Below are positions 2,457 to 27,757 of a stretch of 64,000 nt of DNA, piece by piece. Within the stretch, counting starts at the first letter, position 1, and each line of letters starts with the position of its first letter. The notes beneath the pieces are model-generated. The model made no database searches. It was not told the DNA's origin and was given only the letters and a program-made list of their open reading frames with translations. Origin of the DNA: Candidatus Bathyarchaeota archaeon (GTDB lineage: Archaea; Thermoproteota; Bathyarchaeia; 40CM-2-53-6). The position numbers were made by a program, and so were the translations under genes. Location of the stretch: positions 128,001-192,000 of the forward strand of contig CAVTBR010000003.1 of the NCBI GenBank assembly GCA_963733055.1. Reading direction: 5' to 3'.

Positions 2457-4316
2457 TTACCCGATCTGTTTGTAGCCCGGTCTCTGGCTGATTAGCACGG
2501 GTAATTTCAAAGGCATTGAAGGGTACCCTTTCGTCGCCGCGGCTACCTCTTGGGCCAGAACAGCCACTGTCGAGGGATATTGTTTTCCGTCCATCCGCCT
2601 CCGAACCGCGACAACTTTTCCTTCTACCTCTCGCTTACCGACCACCGCAACGTAAGGTACCCAGTTCAACTCGGCGTCCCTCACGCGTTTATCGACGCTT
2701 TCGTCACGGTCGTCAATGTCGGCTCTAACATTGTACGCCGCTAATTGACTCGCGGTATCAGTTGCAATCGGCACGAATTCCGGTCTTAAGGGGAGGATTC
2801 GCACTTGGGTAGGAGACAACCATAATGGAAGGCTGGGTTTCTCATGTTTAGCTTCCGTCCTTGCGCACTGGTCAAGTATTGTGAATAGGTAGCGTTCCAC
2901 GGAACCTATAACTGCGGTGTGGATGATCGGGGGAAATTCTTTCTCGCTTCGTTCGTTGACGTATGATATCCCGAAACGTTTGGCGTTGCCGATGTCAATT
3001 TGAAATGTAGCGATCTCCCTCGGGCGCTCAAGCTCATCTATGATGTGGTATTCGATATTCAATACCCAGTAGTAGATTCCTTCTGGCACGAAGTTGAGTA
3101 GCGCGGGTTTACCTTCTCGTTTCACAAGTTTCATAACGTACTCTTTGTTCGCCTCAAGAAAACTCGACGTTATGTTGTATATGGACACGTAGTCTCTCCC
3201 AAGTTTCCCTATCTCTTGGTAGATTACTTCGTGGAGTTTGAGCGTAACTTCCATGGCTTCGTTCATGTTCTTGCAGTAGATGTGGCAGTCGGGCATGTGC
3301 AATTTTCTTAGGCGGAAGGACAGAAGGAGTTCCCCGCTTTGCTCGAGTCGGTAGGCGTCAGCAACTTCAAAAGTGCCAAAGGGAAGGTGGCGGTAACTTA
3401 GAGACCAATTTCGTACGGCCGAGAACTGCTGATGACACGCCGCATAGCGCATGACTAGGCTCTTGTTTTCTGCCTCAAGCCTGTAGAGCCTAGATCCAAA
3501 GAGGTCTGCGTGCTCCTTTACCGCGGGGACGGATAGGTCGAACATGTTAGTGCCTTTGACCTGTAGGATTGGGAGCCCGACTGCGTTTACTGCGTCCCAT
3601 GAGTATTGGCTGATCAGGTCGAAAATCATGACGCCCTCTGGGCTATAGCGCATGTGACCGTGGTCTGAGAAGTTCTCCCATTCGATGCCAAATTTCTTGC
3701 AGTATTCAAGATACTTGGGTGTTCCACCAGGCAGAGCCTTCTTCAACGCCTCTTTCTCGACCAAAGTTTTGAACGCCTCTTCTCCGGGCTTGAAGGAGTA
3801 TTCGCCGGGTTCGTACAAGCGTCCGTCGAGGTCCAGCACTTTGTAGTAGGTTTTGATGGGAGGGGCTTCGGCCTTTGCAGCTTCAGGTCTTATGGTTCGG
3901 GATAATTCTGAGAGAGGGTGTCCGATGCAGCTGAGGCTGAAACTCTTGTAGTATCCGAAGGGGCTCCGGTACACGGGCAACTCTTGGTTCTTGAGATTCT
4001 CTAATGACTCTTGGAGAAGTCGCACAGCGAGTGCGGGTGATGCTAGGCTACTGGACAGGTGCGCGTAAGGATACAGCAGTAGCTGACTTGCCTTTACCGA
4101 GCGCGCTACGTCGACGATAGATTGACAAGCTTTCTGAACGACCTCGCCTGGATTTGCTTCGTCTTCCTTCTCGACCGTGCAGAACGCGACTAAGACGTTC
4201 TTGAATTTCCCCGTTCGGTTATCCCCGATTGGTTCAGGGTTTTTGATAGCTTCTTTCCGTACCTCGTACTCAAAATTGTCACAGTGCAGAAGTAATAATC
4301 GCATACTGTCAATCAT
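2457..4316 (-). CDS. thrS: Threonine--tRNA ligase, archaeal type with N-terminal editing domain
   Basis: MRLLLLHCD N-terminus, YPYAHLS, PFGYYK, RYAAC, ATFQID, IIHTA..GSVER. Confidence 0.95.
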   Translation of the reverse strand: MIDSMRLLLLHCDNFEYEVRKEAIKNPEPIGDNRTGKFKNVLVAFCTVEKEDEANPGEVVQKACQSIVDVARSVKASQLLLYPYAHLSSSLASPALAVRLLQESLENLKNQELPVYRSPFGYYKSFSLSCIGHPLSELSRTIRPEAAKAEAPPIKTYYKVLDLDGRLYEPGEYSFKPGEEAFKTLVEKEALKKALPGGTPKYLEYCKKFGIEWENFSDHGHMRYSPEGVMIFDLISQYSWDAVNAVGLPILQVKGTNMFDLSVPAVKEHADLFGSRLYRLEAENKSLVMRYAACHQQFSAVRNWSLSYRHLPFGTFEVADAYRLEQSGELLLSFRLRKLHMPDCHIYCKNMNEAMEVTLKLHEVIYQEIGKLGRDYVSIYNITSSFLEANKEYVMKLVKREGKPALLNFVPEGIYYWVLNIEYHIIDELERPREIATFQIDIGNAKRFGISYVNERSEKEFPPIIHTAVIGSVERYLFTILDQCARTEAKHEKPSLPLWLSPTQVRILPLRPEFVPIATDTASQLAAYNVRADIDDRDESVDKRVRDAELNWVPYVAVVGKREVEGKVVAVRRRMDGKQYPSTVAVLAQEVAAATKGYPSMPLKLPVLISQRPGYKQIG

Positions 4317-5957: not shown

Positions 5958-6877
5958 TTTGGTAGGGGTCGGAAATCCGGTTTACGACAGTATCATTACT
6001 CCGCTCTCCAAGACTAACGGCAGAGTTCTTTCCGGATGCAGCACGAATGCATGCCTCGCCTCGAAGAGGCTAGGTTTGGATAGGGTGGGCTTGGTCGGAT
6101 GTGTTGGCAATGATTATGGGGATAGATTCCGAGAGGACTTGAGAAAATATGGCATTGAGTCCAGAGTAGACTCGAGTGGTAAGGAAACCGGAGGATTCCA
6201 TCTCGTTTACGACTCACGTGGAGACAGAACCCTCGACGTGTTGGGTGTCGCCGCACCCATCAGCAGAAAGAACTTCAACGATGAATTTCTTCAAAGCAAG
6301 TTCACTCTCATCGGACCAATACTGGGCGAAGTTGACCTTCCATTAATCCAGTTCCTTCGATCGTCAACCTCGGGACGACTCTTCCTAGACCCTCAGGGCC
6401 TAGTGCGACGTATAGGATCGGATAAGCGAGTAATCCACGAATGCAATGTCGAGGATTTCAGGAAGATAGCAAGCCTAGTTGACGTCGTCAAACCCAACGA
6501 AACCGAGAGTGAAACGATAACCAAAGAGGTCGATCCCGTTATTGCCATTCGGCGACTCTCTCAGATGGGTGTGCGAGTTCCGATAGTTACCCTTGCGGAC
6601 CGAGGTTCGCTTTTGCTTGAGGGTAATAAATTGCATCATATTCCCCCATATCCCACAGAGGCTGTGGACCCAACGGGTGCGGGCGACGTCTACGGAGGGT
6701 CCTTCATAACAGAGTATCAGCGGCGGGGAGATTTGGTTGAAGCGGCGCTATTCGCGTCCGCTGGCGGCTTCAATGATGGTAGAGCAGGTAGGGCCGGATT
6801 TTCGCTTACCGAGGAAGGAGGTCGAAGATCGGAGAGACGCGATCCGTGACCGGTTAATCACGGAGACGTTGACTTAG
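5950..6877 (+). CDS. PfkB family carbohydrate kinase; apparent +1 frameshift near 6763
   Basis: DPQG, VKPNE.E, DPTGAGD motifs; removing one G at 6763-6764 restores FASAAASMMVEQVGP...TLT* ending at 6877. Confidence 0.85.
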
Positions 6878-20305: not shown

Positions 20306-22240
20306 CTACATCCTTTCACTTAGGTTGATTCCGAGTAGTTCCATGGAGTTACGGAGCACGACTTGCACGGATGCGACCAAAGCGGCTCTCGCGTTCTTAA
20401 CTTGCTCGTCTGCATGTATAACGTCCACCTTTTCGTAGTATTCGTGAAACTTCTCAGCTAACGCGCTGGCGTAGGTAGCTAAATCTTCAGGCTTTAACTG
20501 GTCCGCTGCTTCGCAGAACACATCCGGCAGTTGGCCTATTTTGAATAGTAGAATGTGTTCCAAGGGATGGTTGAGAAGGGAACAATCGGGTTTCTTTGGC
20601 GCCATCCCTAGCTTTCGTAGGATGCTCCCTGCTCTCGTGTAGGCGTAGTTTATGAATGGTGCACTATTCCGCTCTAGGCTGAGGACCCGATCCCAAGTAA
20701 ACATCAGGTTCTTCGCACTGTTCACGCTTAGCATTGCAAACTTGATCGCGCCGTAGGCGATGTTGAGTATTATCTGCTGAGACTCAGCTGAACCGGTTTC
20801 CTGTTTCCTTTCTGCGAGAGTTTGAACCACTCTGGCCTTAGCCTGCTCGACCACCTCGTCTAGTGTGATGAAGTGCGCTCTTCGCTTGGACATTTTAACG
20901 CCGGGCAGCTCAACGAGGCCATACGAGTAATGGACCATGTTCAATGCGGCATCATTCTCCCCGAGGGCGTAGAGTGCGAGGCGAATCTGCAATTGGGGTA
21001 GGGTCTGCTCGCTAGCAATCACGTTGATTACTCGGTCAGAGTCCCTGAACTTGACCAAGGAGTATGCTACATCGCGGGTGGAGTAGAGCGTTGTTCCGTC
21101 GCTTCGTACAAGAGTCAGGGGTGGAACCTCGTAGTTGGAGGACAGCCCAAACGTCTCCCTGAGGTTATAGGCGTCCACGATCGCGTTAGCATCTAACACG
21201 AAGGAAGCGCCCTTTGGTTTGGTGAAGGGCAACTGCGTCAGTTTGTCCAATGTCTTCTTCACGAAACCGTCCCAAAGCAGCTGGCTCTCCCAATCCCATC
21301 TGTCGAAGTCTATTCCGATCTCGTGCAAAGAGACCTTGATTCCTTCGAGGCATCGCTCGACCATTGTGCGGATTAGGCGGGTGGTTGCTTCGTCATTGGC
21401 TTCATATCTCCGACCCAACTCCTGAATCGCCCGCTCCGGGTCGGTCTCAAGTTGAACTATCTTTACCACCTTTCCGAGCAGTTCTTTGTCGAGGGTTTCT
21501 AGCTCGGCTGCTATTCCGACCCACTCGTCGAGATTAGCCTGAAGTTTCGTTCTCTCTTCTGCCTGCCCTTCGCCAATCGATGCCAGTTTGCGTTTGGTAG
21601 TTTCGATCTGGACGGCGCAGTTTGTGCACGCGTAGAGGCGTCCGAAATAATGGTCCGCTTTTCCTTCTGGTGCGGGTCTGGTTAGTAGGTTGTAGCCATA
21701 GGCTAGAATCGAGACCTGCCTTCCCACGTCGTCAACGTAGAACCTCCGAATTACAGAATGGCCGCGAGCGTTGGATAGTCGGGCCAGTGCGTCGCCGAGG
21801 ATGGAGTTGCGTGCCGTAGCCATCGTTACCGGCCCAGCAGGATTCGAGCTTGTGTGTTCAACGCAGACTCTTGTCGGATTAGCAATCCGAACCAACCCAT
21901 AGTTCTGGTTCTCTGTAGCGACAGTATCTAGGATCAGAGGGCCGGCGATTGCGTAATTCAACCTGAAGTTAATGTAACCAGCAGCCTCCTCCACATTCGC
22001 GATGAGAGTCCTGTCGTCTAGTTTTATCGCGCTAGTAATCTTGTGAGCGACGTCCTGAGGTTGCAGCCCCTTTTGCCGCGCGATCTCGTGCGCCACCGAT
22101 GAGGCGAGTTCGCCGAATTGCAAGGACCCCGGGACCGAGAGGCGGTACTGCCCTCTAGATGAGTCCGGATAAGTAATCGATAGCGCGACGTTCAGCGTTT
22201 CGATGCACTCTGCTTTGAATTGCTGGAGGACGGTGGGCAA
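20306..22240 (-). CDS. argS: Arginine--tRNA ligase
   Basis: VEHTSSNP, RN..LGD, DD.GRQ, RSDGT.LY.TRD, KMSKR, C-terminal ERM. Confidence 0.95.
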   Translation of the reverse strand: MPTVLQQFKAECIETLNVALSITYPDSSRGQYRLSVPGSLQFGELASSVAHEIARQKGLQPQDVAHKITSAIKLDDRTLIANVEEAAGYINFRLNYAIAGPLILDTVATENQNYGLVRIANPTRVCVEHTSSNPAGPVTMATARNSILGDALARLSNARGHSVIRRFYVDDVGRQVSILAYGYNLLTRPAPEGKADHYFGRLYACTNCAVQIETTKRKLASIGEGQAEERTKLQANLDEWVGIAAELETLDKELLGKVVKIVQLETDPERAIQELGRRYEANDEATTRLIRTMVERCLEGIKVSLHEIGIDFDRWDWESQLLWDGFVKKTLDKLTQLPFTKPKGASFVLDANAIVDAYNLRETFGLSSNYEVPPLTLVRSDGTTLYSTRDVAYSLVKFRDSDRVINVIASEQTLPQLQIRLALYALGENDAALNMVHYSYGLVELPGVKMSKRRAHFITLDEVVEQAKARVVQTLAERKQETGSAESQQIILNIAYGAIKFAMLSVNSAKNLMFTWDRVLSLERNSAPFINYAYTRAGSILRKLGMAPKKPDCSLLNHPLEHILLFKIGQLPDVFCEAADQLKPEDLATYASALAEKFHEYYEKVDVIHADEQVKNARAALVASVQVVLRNSMELLGINLSERM

Positions 22241-22415
22241 AGCAACCAGTTTTCCGATCTAATCTGCTGGCCCAACAGCGTATGTTCATTTGCTTAAAAT
22301 TGGTTCGCTGACGCGAGTTCAGCGACGACTAAGAACCCTGTTTACTGAGATGTTATTCGGTTCAAGACGGGTCCAAATCCCCAATCTTATACGGCTTGAA
22401 ACCGTCCCACATCAG

Positions 22416-22493
22416 GGGCGGGTAGCCTAGCCTGGATAGGGCACAGGCCTCCGGAGCCTGAGGTCGGGGGTTCGAATCCCTCCCCGCCCGCCA
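22416..22493 (+). tRNA. tRNA-Arg(CCG), intronless, CCA encoded
   Basis: Acceptor GGGCGGG/CCCGCCC, anticodon arm CAGGC-CTCCGGA-GCCTG, GGTTCGAATCC T-loop. Confidence 0.95.
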
Positions 22494-22495
22494 CA
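22467..22495 (+). repeat. attL core (tRNA 3' end)
   Basis: GGGGTTCGAATCCCTCCCCGCCCGCCACA, identical to 26824-26852. Confidence 0.93.
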
Positions 22496-22524
22496 CGTTC
22501 AATCAGAATAAACCCCCGCCCCGT

Positions 22525-23409
22525 TTGAATGAGATAATCAGTTATGGGCTGTGGATGCGCAGGGAAGGTTATCGTGAATCCACCTGCTATTTCTCTGTCC
22601 GAACTCTCAAACGGCTGGACCGTAAGGTCAACTTGTTAGAGCCTGAAGCAGTCAAACGATTCCTAGCCAACTCAGCTTGGAGTGAGGGCGGCAAGGAACG
22701 GGTAGCAGAAGACCTAGACCGATTCTACAAGTTCAAAGGTATCCAGTGGGAGCGGCCAAGATATGAGGCCGTAGATACTCTACCGTACATACCGAAAGAG
22801 GCTGACATTAACGAACTAATCTCAGGCCTCTCCGCTACCGTTGGCACTTTCTGTTTGCTTCTCAAGGAAACAGGCTGCAGGCCATGTGAGGGCTGGGCGG
22901 CTGAATGGACGCATATCGATATGGATAGGCACGCCGTAGTAATTCGAGCCGGTAAGAAATCTAGGAGTAGGGAACTCAGAATTAGTAATGTGGTTGTGAG
23001 CCGACTAAACCAATTACCAAAGAGCGGGAAGTATGTCTTCCATGATGGGAAGAAGCCGCCCATTGACGGCCTAAAGGATTTCACTCGCTCATTTCAGAAA
23101 CAACGTCAACGGGTAAGTGTCAAGTGCGCTAACCCGAAGCTGCAACTAATCAGCCTACGAACCCTACGCCATTACAAGGGAACCATGGAGTATCATCGAA
23201 CCCGTGATATCGTCCACGTCCAACGCTTGCTAGGGCATAGGTCAATCCAGAATACGCTGAGATACGTTCGGCTCGTAAACTTCCCAGATGAAGATGAGTT
23301 CACTTCGAAAGTTGCAACAAGTCAGAAAGAAATTACAGAGTTGATTGAGGCAGGGTTCGAGTTCATTCTGCAAAAAGATGGGCTAGTCTACTTCAGAAAG
23401 AGAAAATGA
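22525..23409 (+). CDS. Tyrosine recombinase/integrase (C-terminal portion; frame open upstream through att core to 22462)
   Basis: TGCR, K, RTLRH, LLGH....T.RY catalytic motifs; C-terminal LIEAGFEF......YFRKRK. Confidence 0.92.
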   Translation: MNEIISYGLWMRREGYRESTCYFSVRTLKRLDRKVNLLEPEAVKRFLANSAWSEGGKERVAEDLDRFYKFKGIQWERPRYEAVDTLPYIPKEADINELISGLSATVGTFCLLLKETGCRPCEGWAAEWTHIDMDRHAVVIRAGKKSRSRELRISNVVVSRLNQLPKSGKYVFHDGKKPPIDGLKDFTRSFQKQRQRVSVKCANPKLQLISLRTLRHYKGTMEYHRTRDIVHVQRLLGHRSIQNTLRYVRLVNFPDEDEFTSKVATSQKEITELIEAGFEFILQKDGLVYFRKRK

Positions 23410-23477
23410 ACTGAGCAAAAGATACTAAAGCCGAATGAGGCTTCTATAGCGACGGAGAAGGAGATAGCGGTTCCACC

Positions 23478-23974
23478 GTGTCAACAGTCCCACAAGCTGT
23501 CAAGGAGAACTTTTGGAAACACGTCCACAAACAACCTAATGGTTGTTGGATTTGGACGGCTTCCAAGAACCAATATGGACATGGCCGATTCCATTATCGT
23601 GGACGTTTCACTACTGCTCACCGAACTGCTTACGAGATTAAATTTGGCCTATAGCCAAAGGAAAGCAGGTTTTGCATCATTGCAATAATCGTGCTTGTGT
23701 AAATCCAGAACACTTGTCCGTCGGAACTGCCAAGGACAACGCCGAACAAAGGGTGAAGGAAGGCCGTTCCAACCCACGCACAGGAGAAGACCATCTCCAT
23801 AAGGTAACTGCGAATCAAGTTTACGAAATTCGGGCGAAGTATGCGAGAGGCGGTGTCGGCTATAGGACTCTCGCCAAGGAATACAAAGTCAGTCCAAGTA
23901 CGATTCTTGCCATAGTTCGCTATCAGTCTTGGAGAAACCCAACGAATATACCGAATAAACAAAACAGAACCTAA
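23478..23974 (+). CDS. HNH endonuclease (HNH_3-like) with C-terminal HTH; frameshift near 23648
   Basis: GTG 23478: FW..V....GCW.W.....GHG.F......AHR.AYE; adding one C joins to VLHHCNNRACVNPEHL..GT..DN. Confidence 0.8.
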
Positions 23975-24134
23975 TACGCAATAAAGTGTACGGGTTATAG
24001 CCTACTTTCGAAAACGCAAATAGCCATCATCGCACGGACTCATATTCTGGAATGCCCAATGAATCGGAAGTGGACCGACCCGCCTGTTATTGTAGCAATG
24101 GTTGCTATCATCGTCTCTGGGTGTTTCTCAGGCC

Positions 24135-24174
24135 TTGGGCCGATTCGCCTGAGTTAACCCTGCGAGGCCCAATC
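24135..24174 (+). repeat. Inter-cassette hairpin site 1
   Basis: TTGGGCC-ga-TTCGC-ctgagttaaccct-GCGA-GGCCCAATC. Confidence 0.75.
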
Positions 24175-24232
24175 CTACTACTTGGTAGAAATGGAGTAAT
24201 ATTACCCTTTTCGACTGTCTCTACAAGCCACC

Positions 24233-24282
24233 TTAAATACCTAGTCGGTATATATAATCATTCTAGATGAGTTCTGGAGGTG
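24233..24282 (+). promoter_or_regulatory. Archaeal promoter and RBS of the 26-aa peptide gene (copy 1)
   Basis: TTAAATA at 24233, TTCTAG at +28, GGAGGTG at +43; same spacing in copy 2. Confidence 0.7.
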
Positions 24283-24290
24283 TTTGAGAG

Positions 24291-24371
24291 ATGGCGAAGA
24301 AACGTAAGGTTAAGATGAGTTTGGGTAAGGAGCACGACAAGAACATTAGACAAGAAGAGCAAGTAGCTTAA
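24291..24371 (+). CDS. 26-aa peptide MAKKRKVKMSLGKEHDKNIRQEEQVA (copy 1)
   Basis: ATG with GGAGGTG RBS; paralog at 27015-27095. Confidence 0.75.
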   Translation: MAKKRKVKMSLGKEHDKNIRQEEQVA

Positions 24372-24384
24372 AGCTACTAACCTT

Positions 24385-24415
24385 GGGCGGATATCGCCCT
24401 CATTTTCTTTCTTTG
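24385..24415 (+). terminator. Hairpin plus T-rich tract after peptide copy 1
   Basis: GGGCG-gatat-CGCCC followed by TTTTCTTTCTTT. Confidence 0.55.
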
Positions 24416-24441
24416 TTATCCCTGATTAGAGCGACCGAACG

Positions 24442-24459
24442 TGGCCTGAAAGGCCAATC
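24442..24459 (+). repeat. Inter-cassette hairpin site 2
   Basis: TGGCC-tgaaa-GGCCAATC. Confidence 0.7.
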
Positions 24460-24586
24460 TGTTTTTAATAGAATATTCCTAGACTAGTGATAACTTCGTG
24501 CCGCCTACGGTTTCGAGTTGTAATTTGATATCGAGAGTCAAACGAGGTCTTATTAACTTCAGAAACCCCCGTCTGCGTTAGGGTTT

Positions 24587-25417
24587 GTGTTCTTGAAACG
24601 TGGAGCAGTTGGGCTTGGCCTAATAGTAGTCATGTTCATGCTTCTGTTCGTTTTGGAGCCGTTGCCTGTTCATGCCGTATCAAGCCTCAGCCTAGACGGA
24701 GCGGCATCAAGCGGGGTATGCACCAGCACTACGTGTTCAGCGACGTTGACGACCTCAAACCCCAACGACATCATCATTGCCTTCGTGGGCGGTGGTCAGA
24801 TAAGTTTTGGAACGCCGCCAACGGCCAGCGGTCTAACCTTCAATACACGATTAACAACAGTGGGTCTCGCCAATGCTGGTGAATGGTGGGCGGTAGCTTC
24901 CTCGCCGCTCTCCAGCGTTACCATAACCGTAACGCTGTCACATAGTACGTCTCCGGAGTATTCGTTGATTGTTTTTGGAATTTCGGGAGCGAATACCGCT
25001 ACCCCCTTCGACCCTTCTTTGCCCTTGCCGGCAACAGCCAACAGCGGCGGCTCCCCAACCAGCTCTTCCAGCGTACAAGTCTCAACCTCCAATCCCAACG
25101 ACATGATTCTAGGACTCGTAGCTGGGGGAACGAATGTTGGCGGTGGGTCTGCGGGTTCAGGCTTGACCATAATAGAATCTCTAGCGAACCATAACAACGC
25201 TGCCGAGTATGAGGTTGTGAGCAACACTCAATCAGGACTCTCTGTCAGCATTAACTTCGGCGGCGGACCCTCTAATTGGCTTATGTTTGGGGACGCCGTA
25301 CAAGCCGCAACTGCTCCACCAATCCCAGAGTATCCGCTTGGATTACCAATTCTAGCAATCCTCACGATAATCGGGTACGGTTTAGTTAGACGACGAACAA
25401 GAAACGATAACGCCTAA
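24587..25417 (+). CDS. Ser/Thr-rich secreted surface protein with PIPEYP-TM-RRR anchor (PEF-CTERM-like); internal duplication
   Basis: Signal peptide, two TSNPND(I/M)I repeats, C-terminal PIPEYPLGLPILAIL..IGYGLVRRR. Confidence 0.8.
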   Translation: MFLKRGAVGLGLIVVMFMLLFVLEPLPVHAVSSLSLDGAASSGVCTSTTCSATLTTSNPNDIIIAFVGGGQISFGTPPTASGLTFNTRLTTVGLANAGEWWAVASSPLSSVTITVTLSHSTSPEYSLIVFGISGANTATPFDPSLPLPATANSGGSPTSSSSVQVSTSNPNDMILGLVAGGTNVGGGSAGSGLTIIESLANHNNAAEYEVVSNTQSGLSVSINFGGGPSNWLMFGDAVQAATAPPIPEYPLGLPILAILTIIGYGLVRRRTRNDNA

Positions 25418-25431
25418 CTTCGGTAAGCGGC

Positions 25432-25460
25432 TGGGCCGAAGCGTGAGCGCAGGCCCAATC
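25432..25460 (+). repeat. Inter-cassette hairpin site 3
   Basis: TGGGCC-gaa-GCG-tgag-CGC-a-GGCCCAATC. Confidence 0.78.
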
Positions 25461-25526
25461 GTTCCAGTACATTCACGATAATGCTTCTCGACATGTTACG
25501 TTAAATAGTCTTAACTTCGTCACAAC

Positions 25527-26054
25527 ATGCAGTGGTTTGTGGAGTCTACGGTTCAAAGATTCAGGTTCATTGCCCTTACGGTCCTTTCGATACTAGCCCT
25601 CACAATTATCGGGGGCGCCTCACTCTCACCAGCATACGCAGATGGATGCATCTTCTCCACTAATGGGAGCCCCTTCACCATAACTCAGGGAACCAGCTTA
25701 ACGGTCACTGGAACTGATAGCTGCAATCCTGCCGGCACAGTTACCGTCGTAGCTCCAATCTATAGCTCATGTATCGGCTCATTCATAGGCTTGCAAGGTT
25801 CGGCTACACCCGTTTCGGGTAGTTTCTCTGTGAATGTTCCTACTTCCTCGCTCGCTCCAGGTTCATATTGTATCGAATTTGCTTCTCAGTGTGCAGGGAC
25901 ATGTCCTGACTCTCCTCTCAATGTCAATGACCCTCTCACTGTTACTCCTGCTACACCCATCCCAGAATATCCACTCGGCCTACCCATACTAGCAATCCTC
26001 GTGCTAATCGGGTTCGGTTTAGTTAGACGCCGAACTCGAAACGATAAAACCTAA
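25527..26054 (+). CDS. Cys-containing secreted surface protein with PIPEYP-TM-RRR anchor
   Basis: Signal peptide, Ig-like beta-rich body, anchor nearly identical to previous gene; TTAAATA at 25501. Confidence 0.8.
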   Translation: MQWFVESTVQRFRFIALTVLSILALTIIGGASLSPAYADGCIFSTNGSPFTITQGTSLTVTGTDSCNPAGTVTVVAPIYSSCIGSFIGLQGSATPVSGSFSVNVPTSSLAPGSYCIEFASQCAGTCPDSPLNVNDPLTVTPATPIPEYPLGLPILAILVLIGFGLVRRRTRNDKT

Positions 26055-26067
26055 GCTCCATAATCCG

Positions 26068-26087
26068 TTGGGCCGAAAGGCCCAATC
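26068..26087 (+). repeat. Inter-cassette hairpin site 4
   Basis: TTGGGCC-gaaa-GGCCCAATC. Confidence 0.78.
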
Positions 26088-26099
26088 ATAATTTAGTAA

Positions 26100-26567
26100 T
26101 TAATTCTTACGCCTAACTACTCCATATCCCATAACCAATAAGATTGCCAGCAACGTGAGGCCGTATGGGTATTCAGGTATTGGAGCTGGAGTTTGAATGA
26201 CTACTTGAGCATCTAGCGGAGGAAGAGTGCCGATTTGTGCCGCCACACAATAGGTACCCACTCCTAGGACGCCGACAAATAGGGTCACGGAAAAGCCTCC
26301 AGTCGGGTCCGTAGTGATTCCTTTATCGCTAGATGAGCCAGCGCATGTCCCCGTAGGGTCAAGGTACAAAATGAGCCCACCCGCCGTGTTAGCAGGCCAT
26401 CCGCTTCCTATAGCTTGCACATTGTTGCCCTGCGTGACAGGGTTCGGCATAAAGGTAAGCGTCGGCGGCGGCAAAGCGTATACGCTTCTAAGATTCAACG
26501 TGACCGCAACTGAAACGATAGCGATTATAGCCAAGACTAATGCTGCTTTCTTCCGCAACCCAACCAA
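26100..26567 (-). CDS. Secreted surface protein with PIPEYP-TM-RRK anchor (inverted orientation)
   Basis: Signal peptide, PNPV.QG..V...GSGW, C-terminal PIPEYPYGLTLLAILLVMGYGVVRRK. Confidence 0.8.
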   Translation of the reverse strand: MVGLRKKAALVLAIIAIVSVAVTLNLRSVYALPPPTLTFMPNPVTQGNNVQAIGSGWPANTAGGLILYLDPTGTCAGSSSDKGITTDPTGGFSVTLFVGVLGVGTYCVAAQIGTLPPLDAQVVIQTPAPIPEYPYGLTLLAILLVMGYGVVRRKN

Positions 26568-26631
26568 ACCACAGAGATAATCGGCTCATCGATTCTTAAG
26601 GTGTTCGTAAGATGCCCAGACTTAACTCCGT

Positions 26632-26648
26632 CGGGTCGACGACCCAAC
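26632..26648 (+). repeat. Inter-cassette hairpin site 5 (compensatory variant)
   Basis: CGGGTC-gac-GACCCAAC; GGGCC/GGCCC replaced by GGGTC/GACCC with pairing kept. Confidence 0.6.
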
Positions 26649-26697
26649 TATAACCTATAACTTTCCGTTAAAATTTCTTAGAAACCTTACCTAACCC

Positions 26698-26857
26698 ATG
26701 ACAACCTCTACAATTTTTTAACCCAAGACAATCTCTACCGAGCGGTGAACCTGCTCTGACCAACGATAATCAGGCTCCTACCTCGCCCGAATCCGGTGTT
26801 AACAAGTCAAGCGGATTGGGGCTGGGGTTCGAATCCCTCCCCGCCCGCCACAATTAG
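26698..26857 (+). pseudogene. Putative int(N) fragment reading into attR
   Basis: Frame 26702-26854 is open and reads ...LGLGFESLPARH, the same frame through the att core as the integrase; ATG 26698 joins it if the T6 run at 26714-26719 is T5; alternative TTG at 26816. Confidence 0.55.
26824..26852 (+). repeat. attR core (duplicate of tRNA-Arg 3' end)
   Basis: Identical 29-mer to 22467-22495. Confidence 0.93.
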
Positions 26858-26958
26858 ACCCCTTATTCATAGAAAGCAGGGAATCAGTTCTAGGCGAAGA
26901 TTCCACCGAGTAGAAATGCGGCGCAATTACTCTTTACGACTTACTCCTTCAAGCTACG

Positions 26959-27008
26959 TTAAATAGCTGAATGACACACAGCGTCGTTCTAGTAGTTTTG
27001 TGGAGGTG
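26959..27008 (+). promoter_or_regulatory. Promoter and RBS of peptide copy 2
   Basis: TTAAATA at 26959, TTCTAG at +28, GGAGGTG at +43. Confidence 0.7.
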
Positions 27009-27014
27009 TTTGGG

Positions 27015-27095
27015 GTGGGGTTGAAACAAAAAGTTAAGATGAAATTAGGTCTTGAGCACGACAAGAACATTAAGCAAGAGGAACAAGTAGCTTAA
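27015..27095 (+). CDS. 26-aa peptide MGLKQKVKMKLGLEHDKNIKQEEQVA (copy 2)
   Basis: GTG start after GGAGGTG; 20/26 identical to copy 1; followed by hairpin + TTTTCTTTCT. Confidence 0.75.
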   Translation: MGLKQKVKMKLGLEHDKNIKQEEQVA

Positions 27096-27166
27096 GCTCG
27101 TAATCTCGGGCGGTTAACTCCGCACCTGATTTTCTTTCTCGGTCATCTAAACGAATCCCGTTTCTC

Positions 27167-27757
27167 TCACCATAATTTCGGAATGAATCTCGGGGTTCGT
27201 TTCTTGTATTCGCGATATTCATCTCCGAATCGATCAATCAATATGGTCTCTTCTTCGTTTATTGATGCGTACAGTACGACGAGTAATGCGATTGTGGGCA
27301 AAAGAACGATCAGATTAGCTACCATAAGCGCCAAGGCGGATAGAGAAACGAATATTCCCAAGTAAATTGGGTGCCTGACGAAACCATAGACACCAGTAGT
27401 TACGAGCGCAGTGTCTTTCCTGACTCCACTTACGGAGGGAGACCAATTTTTGCCAAGCCCCCAATATGCGCACAATACAAACGAGAGACCTAGAATGGCC
27501 ACTCCGAACATGATTAGTCGGAACGAATCAGGCAACGGAATCGAGAGAAACACGACCCAGCTAGGAAGGAACAGGTAGAGTAAAGCTCCTCCGAAATAGA
27601 CGGCGGCCAATACAAGAGCCGTGGAACGTAACCCACCCTCGTGTGAAGTTGTCTGCTTAGTCGCACACCCTTTTGCCGAATAGTATAACACGGTGACACT
27701 TACGAAGAAGATTAACCATAGAATTGAGAAGATAGCGCTGAAAAACAATTCTTCCAA
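27167..27757 (-). CDS. Isoprenylcysteine carboxyl methyltransferase (ICMT/Ste14) family
   Basis: LG.NWS, LVT.G.Y..VRHPIY, EE..L...FG.EY.EY...TPRFIP. Confidence 0.9.
   Translation of the reverse strand: MEELFFSAIFSILWLIFFVSVTVLYYSAKGCATKQTTSHEGGLRSTALVLAAVYFGGALLYLFLPSWVVFLSIPLPDSFRLIMFGVAILGLSFVLCAYWGLGKNWSPSVSGVRKDTALVTTGVYGFVRHPIYLGIFVSLSALALMVANLIVLLPTIALLVVLYASINEEETILIDRFGDEYREYKKRTPRFIPKLW

What the first reader, a model, noticed from the sequence alone, without database searches (positions are those of the whole stretch)
24135..26648. Integron-like gene-cassette array delimited by a novel hairpin repeat inside a tRNA-integrated element
Seen: five related imperfect palindromes, all with the asymmetric CAAT/CAAC tail on the + strand: TTGGGCC..GGCCCAATC (24135), TGGCC-tgaaa-GGCCAATC (24442), TGGGCC..GGCCCAATC (25432), TTGGGCC-gaaa-GGCCCAATC (26068), CGGGTC-gac-GACCCAAC (26632). 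Stems are conserved, with a compensatory change in site 5; loops vary from 3 to ~24 nt; sites 1 and 3 have bulged bases. Each of the four intervals holds exactly one gene with its own TATA-like box, in either orientation. Site 5 lies between divergent transcription units and site 2 follows a separate hairpin/T-tract, so they are hard to explain as terminators. RYYYAAC-like words precede sites 3 (GCCTAAC), 4 (ACCTAAG) and 5 (ACTTAAC), but no consistent GTTRRRY follows. Established: integron attC sites are structure-defined ssDNA hairpins with variable loops and extrahelical bases, recombined by IntI. Inference: this could be an independent archaeal cassette capture/shuffling system served by a non-IntI tyrosine recombinase (22525-23409).
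Basis: partly seen in the sequence, partly recalled or inferred. Interest (0 to 1): 0.9.

Follow-up and report, generated by a model that had tools for sequence, protein, structure and literature searches.

The report
Gene-end hairpin repeat in archaeal islands
A short conserved DNA palindrome sits just behind the stop codons of surface-protein genes carried on small tRNA-integrated islands of a soil archaeon; it most likely marks gene ends, and nothing found here shows that it works like an integron recombination site.

Summary
The five palindromes are real and not chance. They belong to a family with consensus TAA-N5-TTGGGCC-G..A-GGCCCAA-TC. In this genome it occurs only in three small gene arrays. 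It was found in 6 of 23 genomes of the genus and in 0 of 36 genomes of sister genera.

- **Position:** 26 of 38 copies begin 5 nt after the ancestral stop codon of a surface-protein gene with a PEYP...RRRTRN anchor tail, and the hairpin tracks that tail subfamily.
- **Setting:** the arrays lie in or beside tRNA-integrated integrase islands.
- **Shuffling:** related loci, including the same tRNA-Arg locus in two other species, combine the gene modules differently. Homology blocks start or stop at the hairpin, and several deletion scars lie at hairpins.
- **Against site-specific recombination:** there is one 5-7 bp stem, no second binding box and no IntI. The genes have their own promoters, and some neighbouring genes have no hairpin between them. 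Three of five homologous integrases in this genome have no hairpins. Duplicate metagenome contigs show no variants.
- **Not available:** RNA or circle data.

Best reading (0.5): a gene-end stem-loop inherited with the 3' module (terminator or insulator-like) that also serves as a passive homology or fragile point. Integron-like capture remains possible (about 0.12).

The parts
22416..22493 (+). tRNA-Arg(CCG), integration target. Its last 34 nt (22462-22495) form attL.
   Evidence: ARAGORN; Rfam tRNA 64 bits; direct repeat D7.
22525..23409 (+). Tyrosine recombinase (integrase) of the element. It is not an integron integrase.
   Evidence: PF00589 E 6.7e-13. NCBIfam XerA 51 bits (cut-off 220) and integron integrase 39 bits (cut-off 265). 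The frame stays open across att in a simulated circle.
23478..23974 (+). Broken HNH/His-Me endonuclease plus HTH gene, in two ORFs (23478-23654 and 23672-23974).
   Evidence: Sub-threshold Pfam matches to zf-His_Me_endon, HNH_3 and HTH_38; ORF list.
24135..24174 (+). H1: long-loop copy of the palindrome (TTGGGCC, 24 nt, GGCCCAA-TC), upstream of the small gene's promoter.
   Evidence: Sequence. Model hit 17.7 bits. Homologous long-loop copies in L001, L004, L006 and L002. Fold z -1.2.
24291..24371 (+). 26-aa lysine-rich ORF with a conserved promoter. Its own hairpin plus T-tract lies at 24385-24408. It is one of about 10 paralogs in the genome.
   Evidence: terminator-like site.
24442..24459 (+). 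H2: shortened copy (TGGCC-tgaaa-GGCCA-ATC) followed by a T-run.
   Evidence: 24 bits; terminator-like. An orthologous copy is in L002.
24587..25417 (+). Gene 1: secreted protein of 276 aa with a PEYPLGL-TM-RRRTRN C-terminal anchor-like tail.
   Evidence: No Pfam or NCBIfam family matched. Homologs in L001, L005, L024 and L028.
25432..25460 (+). H3: copy with a 14-nt loop, 14 nt after the stop of gene 1 and about 42 nt before the TATA-like box of gene 2.
   Evidence: 34 bits; z -3.1. L004 has an identical loop behind a different gene.
25527..26054 (+). Gene 2: secreted protein of 175 aa with the same tail.
   Evidence: 41-50% identity to homologs in L004, L001 and L012.
26068..26087 (+). H4: canonical copy (TTGGGCC-gaaa-GGCCCAA-TC), shared by the convergent genes 2 and 3. 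It lies 13 nt from each stop.
   Evidence: 41.3 bits forward, 14.2 reverse; z -4.1.
26100..26567 (-). Gene 3: convergent secreted protein of 155 aa with a PEYPYGL...RRKN tail.
   Evidence: Homologous 3' ends in L002, L005 and L010.
26632..26648 (+). H5: diverged copy (CGGGTC-gac-GACCC-AAC). It looks like a relic gene end: its left flank TAACTCCGT matches the stop-plus-spacer of other copies, and a fragment of the small gene's start lies just before it.
   Evidence: 28.7 bits. (left flank like L5b_H4). repeat D6 (26593-26614 is 77% like 24272-24293). Fold z -1.65.
26651..26710 (+). Conserved 'tail' next to attR, shared with sister elements. It is possibly the integrase's upstream region in the excised circle (inference).
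   Evidence: 88% to C1 1424625-1424560; 93.5% to L005 2822-2911.
26819..26852 (+). attR: repeat of the tRNA 3' end.
   Evidence: repeat D7 (94%).
27015..27095 (+). Host-side paralog of the 26-aa ORF, just outside attR. It shows that the tRNA-downstream flank and the element cargo are paralogous.
   Evidence: repeats D2, D8, D12, D16, D19.

Best explanation
The repeat is a gene-end palindrome. It belongs to the 3' module (anchor-tail coding sequence, stop codon, 5-nt spacer, hairpin) of one subfamily of secreted, C-terminally anchored surface-protein genes. These genes ride on small integrase islands at tRNA genes.

**Shown.**
- Its position relative to stop codons and its orientation.
- Its restriction to these arrays.
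- Its co-inheritance with the tail subfamily.
- Block boundaries and scars of rearrangement lie at it.

**Inferred.**
- In the transcript it forms a stem-loop that ends or insulates each independently promoted gene. For convergent pairs it would do so in both directions, and it may protect the 3' end.
- As a conserved palindrome of about 35 nt repeated every 0.3-1 kb, it also acts passively. It is a patch of homology and a fragile point where modules are duplicated, deleted and recombined.

This would produce the cassette-like look without a dedicated hairpin recombinase. On this reading H1, H2 and H5 are boundary or relic copies left by such rearrangements.
For: **Position.**
- 26 of 38 forward copies have an anchor-tail coding sequence on the left and a conserved TAA exactly 5 nt before TTGGGCC.
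- Where the real stop lies 9-10 nt further upstream, it is mostly in frame with that TAA. This is my reading of the sequences.

**Orientation and spacing.**
- The model scores forward far above reverse (41 against 14 bits at H4), and all copies in an array point the way of the forward genes.
- H4-type copies are shared by convergent genes at 13-14 nt from each stop.
- The hairpin lies between a stop and the next gene's TTAAATA-like box.

**Co-inheritance with the tail.**
- Among 35 anchor-tail genes in the non-redundant metagenome loci, 10 have the hairpin, counting degenerate copies. Nine of the 10 have R-R-(R/K)-T-R tails.
- 0 of 8 genes with ...TKQK-type tails have it.
- In the window's genome, 7 of 20 xEYPxGL-tail genes have it, all in the three arrays (my count).

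**Terminator-like features in part.**
- H2 is followed by a T-run.
- Several other copies are followed by T-rich runs.

**Passive recombination.**
- 130 nt of tail plus hairpin are 81% identical between genes 1 and 2 (repeat D1).
- Blocks of 90-93% identity between species begin at the hairpin: right arm, promoter and signal peptide, about 125 nt. The H5-plus-tail block does the same.
- L001 has the array without gene 3, with H4 joined straight to the tail.
- Scars at hairpins:
  - In L001, H1 is fused to the 3' half of the small gene.
  - In L026, a left arm and loop are fused to attR, and there is a TTGGGCC-gag-TTGGGCC junction.
  - The H2 right arm is lost in L005.
  - The left arm is lost in L026.
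  - A truncated promoter lies after the last hairpin in L004.
Against: - Hairpins are not the usual gene-end signal in this genome. Only 38 of 1273 long ORFs have a perfect GC-rich hairpin within 45 nt of the stop, against 22 inside genes and 21 upstream.
- Most copies lack a T-tract directly after the stem, for example GGCCCAATCGTTCCAG. Archaeal termination is known to rely on oligo-T (recalled).
- The stem mismatches carry no RNA signature: 5 G-T against 10 A-C.
- The loops are mostly G-N-A or G-NN-A closed by C-G (34 of 38 are G...A). I recall this motif as typical of very stable DNA mini-hairpins.
- 12 of 38 copies do not follow an anchor-tail gene: 5 H1-type, 2 H2, H5, 2 behind other genes in G008, and 2 singletons. 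One of the singletons lies between divergent ORFs.
- No RNA data exist to show 3' ends.
Confidence: 0.5

Rival explanations
1. **Integron-like site-specific recombination.** The hairpins are recombination sites, in single-stranded or cruciform DNA. The island's tyrosine recombinase, or another enzyme, cuts and joins them to capture, delete and reorder one-gene cassettes.
For: - Hairpins occur only in arrays in or beside tRNA-integrated islands.
- All copies in an array share one orientation, also across a reversed gene.
- They are co-oriented with the integrase in 5 of 5 arrays that have one: window, L001, L005, L026 and L039.
- Gene 3 plus H5 is an indel flanked by CCCAA on both sides, relative to L001.
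- Homology blocks begin at the loop or right arm.
- The same H3 loop and downstream promoter sit behind different genes in two species.
- In L026 a hairpin left arm and loop abut attR.
- The arms read GTTGGGC / GCCCAAY, the words of integron core sites (sequence; core-site consensus recalled).
- The G-N(N)-A loops resemble stable DNA mini-hairpins (recalled).
- The same mini-hairpin sits inside 235-nt attC-like repeats of a Spirochaetales MAG.
Against: - One stem of 5-7 bp offers at most one recombinase binding box. There is no second box, no central unpaired spacer and no extrahelical bases. The arm order is the reverse of attC (recalled).
- There is no IntI.
- 3 of 5 homologous integrases in the genome have no hairpins. 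The arrays in L002, L004 and L012 have no such integrase beside them.
- Hairpins are missing between some neighbouring genes.
- The left flank of H5 is a relic stop-plus-spacer, not cassette-specific sequence.
- The hairpin tracks a gene-tail subfamily.
- In the Spirochaetales repeat the mini-hairpin lies in the variable middle, not in the terminal boxes.
- 9 pairs or groups of duplicate metagenome contigs are collinear.
Confidence: 0.13
2. **A small mobile palindromic element (REP/MITE-like).** It inserts by itself behind genes.
For: - It is an extragenic palindrome, mostly at gene 3' ends.
- Copies lie behind unrelated genes in G008, and there are singletons in G003 and G015.
- Homologs of the G008 gene in other genomes lack it.
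Against: - There are only about 12 copies in three arrays in a 2.88-Mb genome.
- No Y1/RAYT-type transposase is found in the genome, which is 96% complete.
- Where H2 is present or absent, the difference is an indel of about 100 nt, not a clean insertion of the palindrome (by eye).
- No target duplications were seen.
- In G008 the paralogs' 3' flanks are wholly unrelated, so no empty site could be defined.
Confidence: 0.08
3. **Duplex-DNA operator.** A dimeric regulator binds TTGGGCC/GGCCCAA as an inverted repeat and co-regulates the island's surface-protein genes.
For: - The half-sites are sequence-conserved with little covariation.
- The site lies upstream of the next gene's promoter.
Against: - Spacing between the half-sites ranges from 3 to 24 nt.
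- Distance to the downstream TATA-like box is not constant: about 42 nt at H3 and about 60 nt at H1.
- H4-type copies have no downstream promoter, because they lie between convergent genes.
- The flank and the loop closure are strongly asymmetric.
Confidence: 0.07

Closest known systems
Integron attC sites and cassette arrays (IntI/attI/attC), including the archaeal integrons of Ghaly et al. 2022 (PMC9668308, passages read)
   Same: - Same-orientation imperfect palindromes with variable loops separate mostly single genes.
- The site starts right after the stop codon.
- The array lies next to a tyrosine recombinase.
- Content differs between relatives.
   Different: - No IntI with its additional domain.
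- The sites are 17-40 nt with one short stem, against the two-box, bulged sites of about 57-141 nt in attC (recalled).
- The arm words are in reverse order.
- The genes have their own promoters.
- No attI was identified.
- Hairpins are absent between some genes.
- Hairpin presence follows a gene-tail subfamily.
REP/BIME extragenic palindromes of bacteria (recalled)
   Same: - Short GC-rich imperfect palindromes in extragenic space.
- They lie at the 3' ends of genes and between convergent genes.
- They are thought to stabilise mRNA or end transcription, and they promote rearrangements.
   Different: - REPs occur in hundreds of copies genome-wide and have RAYT transposases.
- Here there are about 12 copies in three arrays and no Y1 transposase.
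- The repeat is limited to one archaeal genus.
Intrinsic and bidirectional hairpin terminators (recalled)
   Same: - A GC-rich stem-loop just behind the stop codon.
- It is shared by convergent genes.
- H2 and some other copies are followed by T-rich runs.
   Different: - Most copies have no T-tract right after the stem.
- Archaeal RNA polymerase is not known to need hairpins (recalled).
- Hairpins are not general at gene ends in this genome.
- The sequence, not only the structure, is conserved.
Small cryptic integrated elements at archaeal tRNA genes (Krupovic et al. 2019, PMC6563490, passages read)
   Same: - An element of a few kb with a tyrosine integrase, direct repeats made from a tRNA end, and cargo of unknown function.
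   Different: - That paper's text has no occurrence of 'hairpin'.
- It covers Thaumarchaeota.
- The internal palindrome array and the modular surface-protein cargo are not described there.

Membership tests
Integron (IntI/attC) | An integron integrase with the IntI-specific additional domain. | tested here: not met
   - TIGR02249 scores 39.3 bits against a cut-off of 265, and PRK15417 scores 30.8 against 435, for 22525-23409.
- None of the 9 matches in the whole genome passes the cut-off.
Integron (IntI/attC) | attC architecture: R''-L''...L'-R' boxes (two binding boxes per folded site), extrahelical bases, about 57-141 nt (recalled definition). | tested here: not met
   - By inspection of the 38 aligned copies there is a single 5-7 bp stem and no bulges.
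- Total length is 17-40 nt in the window.
- The arms are in the order GTTRRRY...RYYYAAY.
- IntegronFinder's attC model could not be run.
Integron (IntI/attC) | Sites strictly alternate with cassettes, which are mostly promoterless. | tested here: not met
   - There is no hairpin between the small gene and gene 1 in L001 and L004, nor between PEF170 and PEF163 in L024.
- TTAAATA-like boxes lie upstream of the genes.
Integron (IntI/attC) | Cassette content and order vary between related genomes, with boundaries at the sites. | tested here: inconclusive
   - Modules are combined differently in the window, L001, L002, L004, L005, L006 and L010, and block edges lie at hairpins.
- Homology also runs across hairpins: 25322-25639 against C1 at 75%.
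- Duplicate metagenome contigs show no variants.
REP/REPIN elements | High copy number dispersed over the genome. | tested here: not met
   There are 12 model hits at E<=1, all the strong ones in three arrays.
REP/REPIN elements | A cognate RAYT (Y1 transposase). | tested here: not met
   PF01797 has 0 matches in the genome, which is 96% complete. The control genomes gave matches in 6 of 14.
Hairpin (intrinsic-type) transcription terminator | A GC-rich stem-loop directly followed by a U/T tract. | tested here: inconclusive
   - H2 meets the scan's rule, but H1, H3, H4 and H5 do not.
- T-rich runs follow several copies after a 3-4 nt AATC spacer.
Hairpin (intrinsic-type) transcription terminator | Transcript 3' ends map to the site. 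| not testable with these tools
   No RNA run is listed for this stretch. Read laying returned only low-depth DNA contigs.
PEF-CTERM / PEFG-CTERM sorting-signal proteins (the cargo) | A match to the curated C-terminal sorting-domain models. | tested here: not met
   - There were no Pfam or NCBIfam hits at E<=0.1 for genes 1-3.
- The P-E-Y-P, hydrophobic helix and RRR layout is seen by eye only.

The most novel reading that the evidence does not exclude
The hairpins are the crossover sites of an archaeal gene-module exchange system unrelated to IntI. A short DNA mini-hairpin (a C-G-closed G-N(N)-A loop on a GTTGGGC/GCCCAAC stem) extruded behind each surface-protein gene would be cut and rejoined by the island's tyrosine recombinase or a host enzyme. 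One-gene modules could then be inserted, deleted and swapped between tRNA-integrated islands. That would make it an independent, miniature analogue of the integron that diversifies the cell surface.
Probability: 0.12. Interest if true: 0.85.

Novelty: new variant of a known kind. Interest (0 to 1): 0.4.

Why it matters
**If the ordinary reading holds.**
- This is a lineage-specific gene-end element of an uncultured soil or peat archaeon.
- It shows how conserved gene-end modules let surface-protein genes on small integrative islands be duplicated and recombined.
- It would also be a rare candidate for hairpin-dependent transcript ends in archaea, where termination signals are poorly known.

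**If the minority reading holds.**
- It would be a second, independently evolved cassette-exchange platform, found in Archaea and using a far smaller site than attC.
- That would bear on how integron-like systems arise.

**In either case.**
- The arrays give a compact, testable system: about 20-nt sites, 4-5 kb elements, and a known tRNA target.

Tried and rejected
**Readings and leads rejected**
- **Chance:** rejected.
- **Genome-wide REP-like repeat:** rejected.
- **General use of hairpins at gene ends in this genome:** rejected.
- **Known RNA family:** Rfam finds only the tRNA in 22000-27500.
- **Origin of the H1 long loop from a tRNA or another genomic sequence:** blastn-short gave only chance-level words.
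- **Free viral or plasmid form:** one IMG/VR match, inside an ORF of a 59% GC contig, taken as chance.
- **Diversity-generating retroelement:** considered because of the hairpin behind variable proteins. Rejected on anatomy: the constant anchor, not a variable region, abuts the hairpin, and the element has no reverse transcriptase gene. No search was run for this.
- **Shufflon-type inversion:** considered and not pursued. The sites lie outside coding sequence.
- **L003 sites (C3 668901, 674624) and L007-L009:** these are regex hits inside long ORFs, taken as chance.

**Searches that gave nothing usable**
- **Whole-collection pattern scan:** it returned 86 stretches, about my rough chance expectation for 18 fixed bases. 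The exceptions are one Spirochaetales MAG, a Leptospirales MAG and some Oscillospiraceae MAGs, which carry the motif inside their own repeats. The 80 rows listed held no record of the window's genus. The tool says near records may be left out, and 6 stretches were not listed.
- **Expression:** no RNA holder is listed.
- **Read laying:** only 2-6x soil-metagenome contigs. It reported one joint, 25417 to 26065, with 21 letters on its shorter side. By the tool's own warning that could come from a paralog, so I do not use it.
- **Parts of the stretch without cover:** no conclusion drawn.
- **Duplicate metagenome contigs:** no structural variants.
- **G008 paralogs:** they gave no empty site.
- **Supplementary files of the two papers:** not opened. 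They may list small elements or attC sites of related archaea.

Full report
**1. What is there**

The window is G000:C3:128001-192000 of a 2.88-Mb, three-contig genome with 50.5% GC. I did not test that.

The element is bounded by a tRNA gene and a repeat of its end.
- tRNA-Arg(CCG) lies at 22416-22493.
- Its last 34 nt recur at 26819-26852 with 94% identity (repeat D7).
- So about 22494-26852 is an integrated element.

The element holds the following.
- A tyrosine recombinase at 22525-23409 (PF00589, E 6.7e-13).
- A broken HNH/His-Me endonuclease gene at 23478-23974.
- A 26-aa lysine-rich ORF at 24291-24371.
- Three genes for secreted proteins at 24587-25417 (+), 25527-26054 (+) and 26100-26567 (-). 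Each ends in P-E-Y-P, a hydrophobic helix and an RRR cluster. No Pfam or NCBIfam model matches these three proteins.

**2. The observation**

They are not chance.
- GGCCCAAT occurs 6 times in the window against 2.1 expected.
- The strict pattern TTGGGCC-N3-30-GGCCCAA occurs at 6 places in the genome. The pattern read backwards occurs at none.
- A covariance model built from 15 copies gives only 12 hits at E<=1 in the whole genome. Nine are seeds lying in three arrays, one is H1, and two are weak.

The refined consensus from 38 forward copies is TAA-N3-CG-TTGGGCC-G...A-GGCCCAA-TC.
- The loop has 3 nt in 13 copies, 4 nt in 9, 5 nt in 8, and 12-24 nt in 8.
- It opens with G and closes with A in 34 of 38 copies.
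- The element is asymmetric: 41 bits forward against 14 reverse at H4.

Covariation is slight: 89% of cells are paired, with only 5 double changes. Only H3 and H4 fold clearly better than shuffles.

**3. Distribution**

In this genome there are two further arrays.
- One is on contig 1 (L001), beside a degraded homologous integrase and a tRNA-like gene with a direct repeat of its end.
- One is on contig 3 (L002), beside a tRNA-end fragment and an unrelated large recombinase.

In other genomes:
- The model finds copies at E<=0.01 in 6 of 23 genomes of the genus (G000, G013, G019, G008, G003, G015).
- It finds none in 36 genomes of four sister genera.
- Among 42 metagenome loci fetched with a profile of gene 2, 12 loci carry hits at E<=1. 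That is 10 after removing duplicates.

**4. Where the copies sit**

- 26 of 38 copies have an anchor-tail coding sequence on their left and a conserved TAA 5 nt before the stem. Where the actual stop lies 9-10 nt further upstream, it is mostly in frame with that TAA.
- H4-type copies are shared by a forward gene and a convergent gene.
- To the right there usually follows, within about 45 nt, the TTAAATA-like box of the next gene.
- The hairpin follows one tail subfamily. Of 35 anchor-tail genes in the non-redundant metagenome loci, 10 have it, counting degenerate copies. Nine of those ten have R-R-(R/K)-T-R tails, and 0 of 8 genes with ...TKQK-type tails have it.
- In G000, 7 of 20 xEYPxGL-tail genes have it, all in the three arrays (my count).
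- Twelve copies are elsewhere: five long-loop H1-type copies upstream of the small ORF, two H2 copies, H5, two behind unrelated genes in G008, and two singletons. One singleton lies between divergent ORFs.
- Hairpins are not the common gene-end signal here: 38 of 1273 long ORFs have one, against 22 and 21 in the controls.

**5. Are the modules shuffled, and where?**

Yes, they are shuffled.
- **L001** has a gene 1 homolog, H3, a gene 2 homolog and H4. H4 is joined directly to the 'tail' that in the window follows H5. Gene 3 plus H5 is therefore an indel flanked by CCCAA on both sides.
- **G013, syntenic tRNA-Arg locus (L005).** A homologous integrase is integrated in the 5' half of the same tRNA. 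It carries a broken gene 1 homolog, a compensated hairpin (TTGGGCT...AGCCCAA), a convergent gene 3 homolog, a degenerate H1 and a degenerate H5 plus tail. Downstream of the tRNA lies a different forward gene, then H4, then a gene 3 homolog.
- **G013, L004** has H1, the small ORF, three forward genes and three hairpins right behind another tRNA-like gene, with no integrase.
- **G019** (L006, L010) shows further combinations.

Blocks of 90-93% identity between species begin at the hairpin.
- One runs from the right arm through the promoter to the signal peptide of gene 2, about 125 nt.
- The other is H5 plus the tail.
- The same 14-nt H3 loop and downstream promoter stand behind different genes in G000 and G013.

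Scars lie at hairpins.
- In L001, H1 is fused to the 3' half of the small ORF.
- In L026, a left arm and loop are fused to attR, and there is an arm-arm junction.
- Arms are lost in L005 and L026.

Against a site-specific process:
- Homology also runs through hairpins (25322-25639 against contig 1, 75%).
- The left flank of H5 is a relic stop-plus-spacer, preceded by a fragment of the small ORF's start.
- Some neighbouring genes have no hairpin between them.
- Nine pairs or groups of duplicate metagenome contigs are collinear.

**6. The integrase**

- It scores far below the integron-integrase cut-offs. No gene in the genome passes them.
- G000 has five homologs at 40-100% identity. Only two of them stand next to hairpin arrays.
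- Three arrays (L002, L004, L012) have no such integrase beside them.
- There is no Y1/RAYT transposase.

**7. Reading**

The data fit best a gene-end module: tail, stop, spacer and palindrome, inherited and duplicated together. As RNA the palindrome would end or insulate independently promoted, closely packed genes. As repeated DNA it would be a homology patch and fragile point that yields cassette-like reshuffling.

I give this 0.5. The points against it are:
- T-tracts are mostly missing.
- Stem mismatches show no G-U bias: 5 G-T against 10 A-C.
- Hairpins are unusual at gene ends in this genome.
- No RNA data could be had.

Site-specific, integron-like exchange stays possible at about 0.12-0.13. 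It gains from the uniform orientation, the indel bounded by hairpins, the block edges, the att-adjacent half hairpin and the DNA-type loops. It loses on site architecture, the lack of strict alternation, the loose link to the integrase and the tie to a gene-tail subfamily.

A self-mobile palindrome (0.08) and a duplex operator (0.07) are less likely, for the reasons listed under the rivals.

**8. Comparison with what is known**

- **Archaeal integrons.** As described so far, they are canonical IntI/attC systems (PMC9668308, passages read).
- **Integrated elements.** The survey of integrated elements in Thaumarchaeota does not mention hairpins (PMC6563490, word search and passages).
- **Searches of the literature.** The two searches I ran used 'integrated mobile genetic elements' + 'Thaumarchaeota' + 'integrase' and 'integrons in Archaea' + 'attC'. 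I ran no search for the palindrome itself, so I do not claim that it is unpublished.
- **A curiosity.** The same 18-20-nt mini-hairpin occurs in every copy of a 235-nt repeat of a Spirochaetales MAG. That repeat has attC-like ends: TAAC-GAC-GCGGCTTAGCG ... CGCTAAGCCGC-AAA-GTTAT. The copies are spaced 0.7-3 kb apart in one orientation over many loci. There the mini-hairpin lies in the variable middle part, so it does not show that the archaeal hairpin is a recombination box.

**9. Verdict**

- Observation: confirmed.
- Interpretation: partly supported. The anatomy and the variability hold; the mechanism is not shown.
- Novelty: a new variant of a known kind, namely extragenic gene-end palindromes.
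- Interest: 0.4.

Noticed in passing
window 24185-24420 and 26910-27147; also C1 748548, 761884, 1165554, 566882, 259280; C2 485230; C3 502762 (genome coordinates): A 26-aa lysine-rich ORF (MAKKRKVKM...EHDKNIRQEEQVA type) has about 10 paralogs. Each has a conserved upstream region of about 110 nt, a TTAAATA box and its own hairpin plus T-tract. Several copies lie directly downstream of tRNA genes or att sites, for example after tRNA-Met on contig 2. No family matched.
   Followed up: partly
window 26700-26852 joined to 22496-23409 (simulated circle): The integrase reading frame stays open for about 58 codons upstream across the att core when the element is circularised, as in integrases split by their own att site. 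No ATG lies in the extension. The conserved 'tail' at 26651-26710 would then lie just upstream of the integrase.
   Followed up: partly
L005 2687-2720 and 5983-6060 (G013:C28), compared with window 22416-22495: Homologous integrases (about 45% identity) target the same tRNA-Arg(CCG) gene in two species, but in different halves. The G013 element duplicates the 5' 34 nt of the tRNA. The window's element duplicates the 3' 34 nt.
   Followed up: partly
L060, L062, L071, L074, L083, L087, L107, L119 and others (one Spirochaetales MAG); L118 and L135 (a Leptospirales MAG): Very large same-orientation arrays of a 235-nt repeat with attC-like terminal inverted boxes, spaced 0.7-3 kb apart. This is probably a giant sedentary chromosomal integron with unusually long attC sites. 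Each repeat contains the same GTTGGGCCG-NN-AGGCCCAAT mini-hairpin as the archaeal element.
   Followed up: partly
L086 2468-2592 (an Oscillospiraceae MAG) and single hits in about 12 other Oscillospiraceae or Clostridia contigs: The same mini-hairpin sits within a 53-nt tandem repeat, and as dispersed copies, in unrelated Firmicutes MAGs.
   Followed up: no
L026 about 6560-6610 and 3360-3385: A hairpin left arm and loop are fused directly to the attR copy of a tRNA 3' end. There is also a TTGGGCC-gag-TTGGGCC junction (two left arms) behind a relic reversed anchor tail.
   Followed up: partly
window 22607-22641: A weak model hit (20 bits), TGGACC-gtaa-GGTCAA, lies inside the 5' part of the integrase ORF. 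It is probably chance.
   Followed up: no
L011 7236-7622 (G008) and its copies in G008:C8, G002:C35, G002:C20 and G019:C38: A 128-aa ORF is present in several copies that are 91-97% identical across species. Homology stops exactly at the stop codon, and each copy has a different 3' flank.
   Followed up: partly
contig 2, about 482-527 kb (genome coordinates): A dense cluster of xEYPxGL-tail genes lies interleaved with intron-containing tRNA genes (Thr, Met, Gly), without the hairpin. It is a further island-rich region.
   Followed up: no
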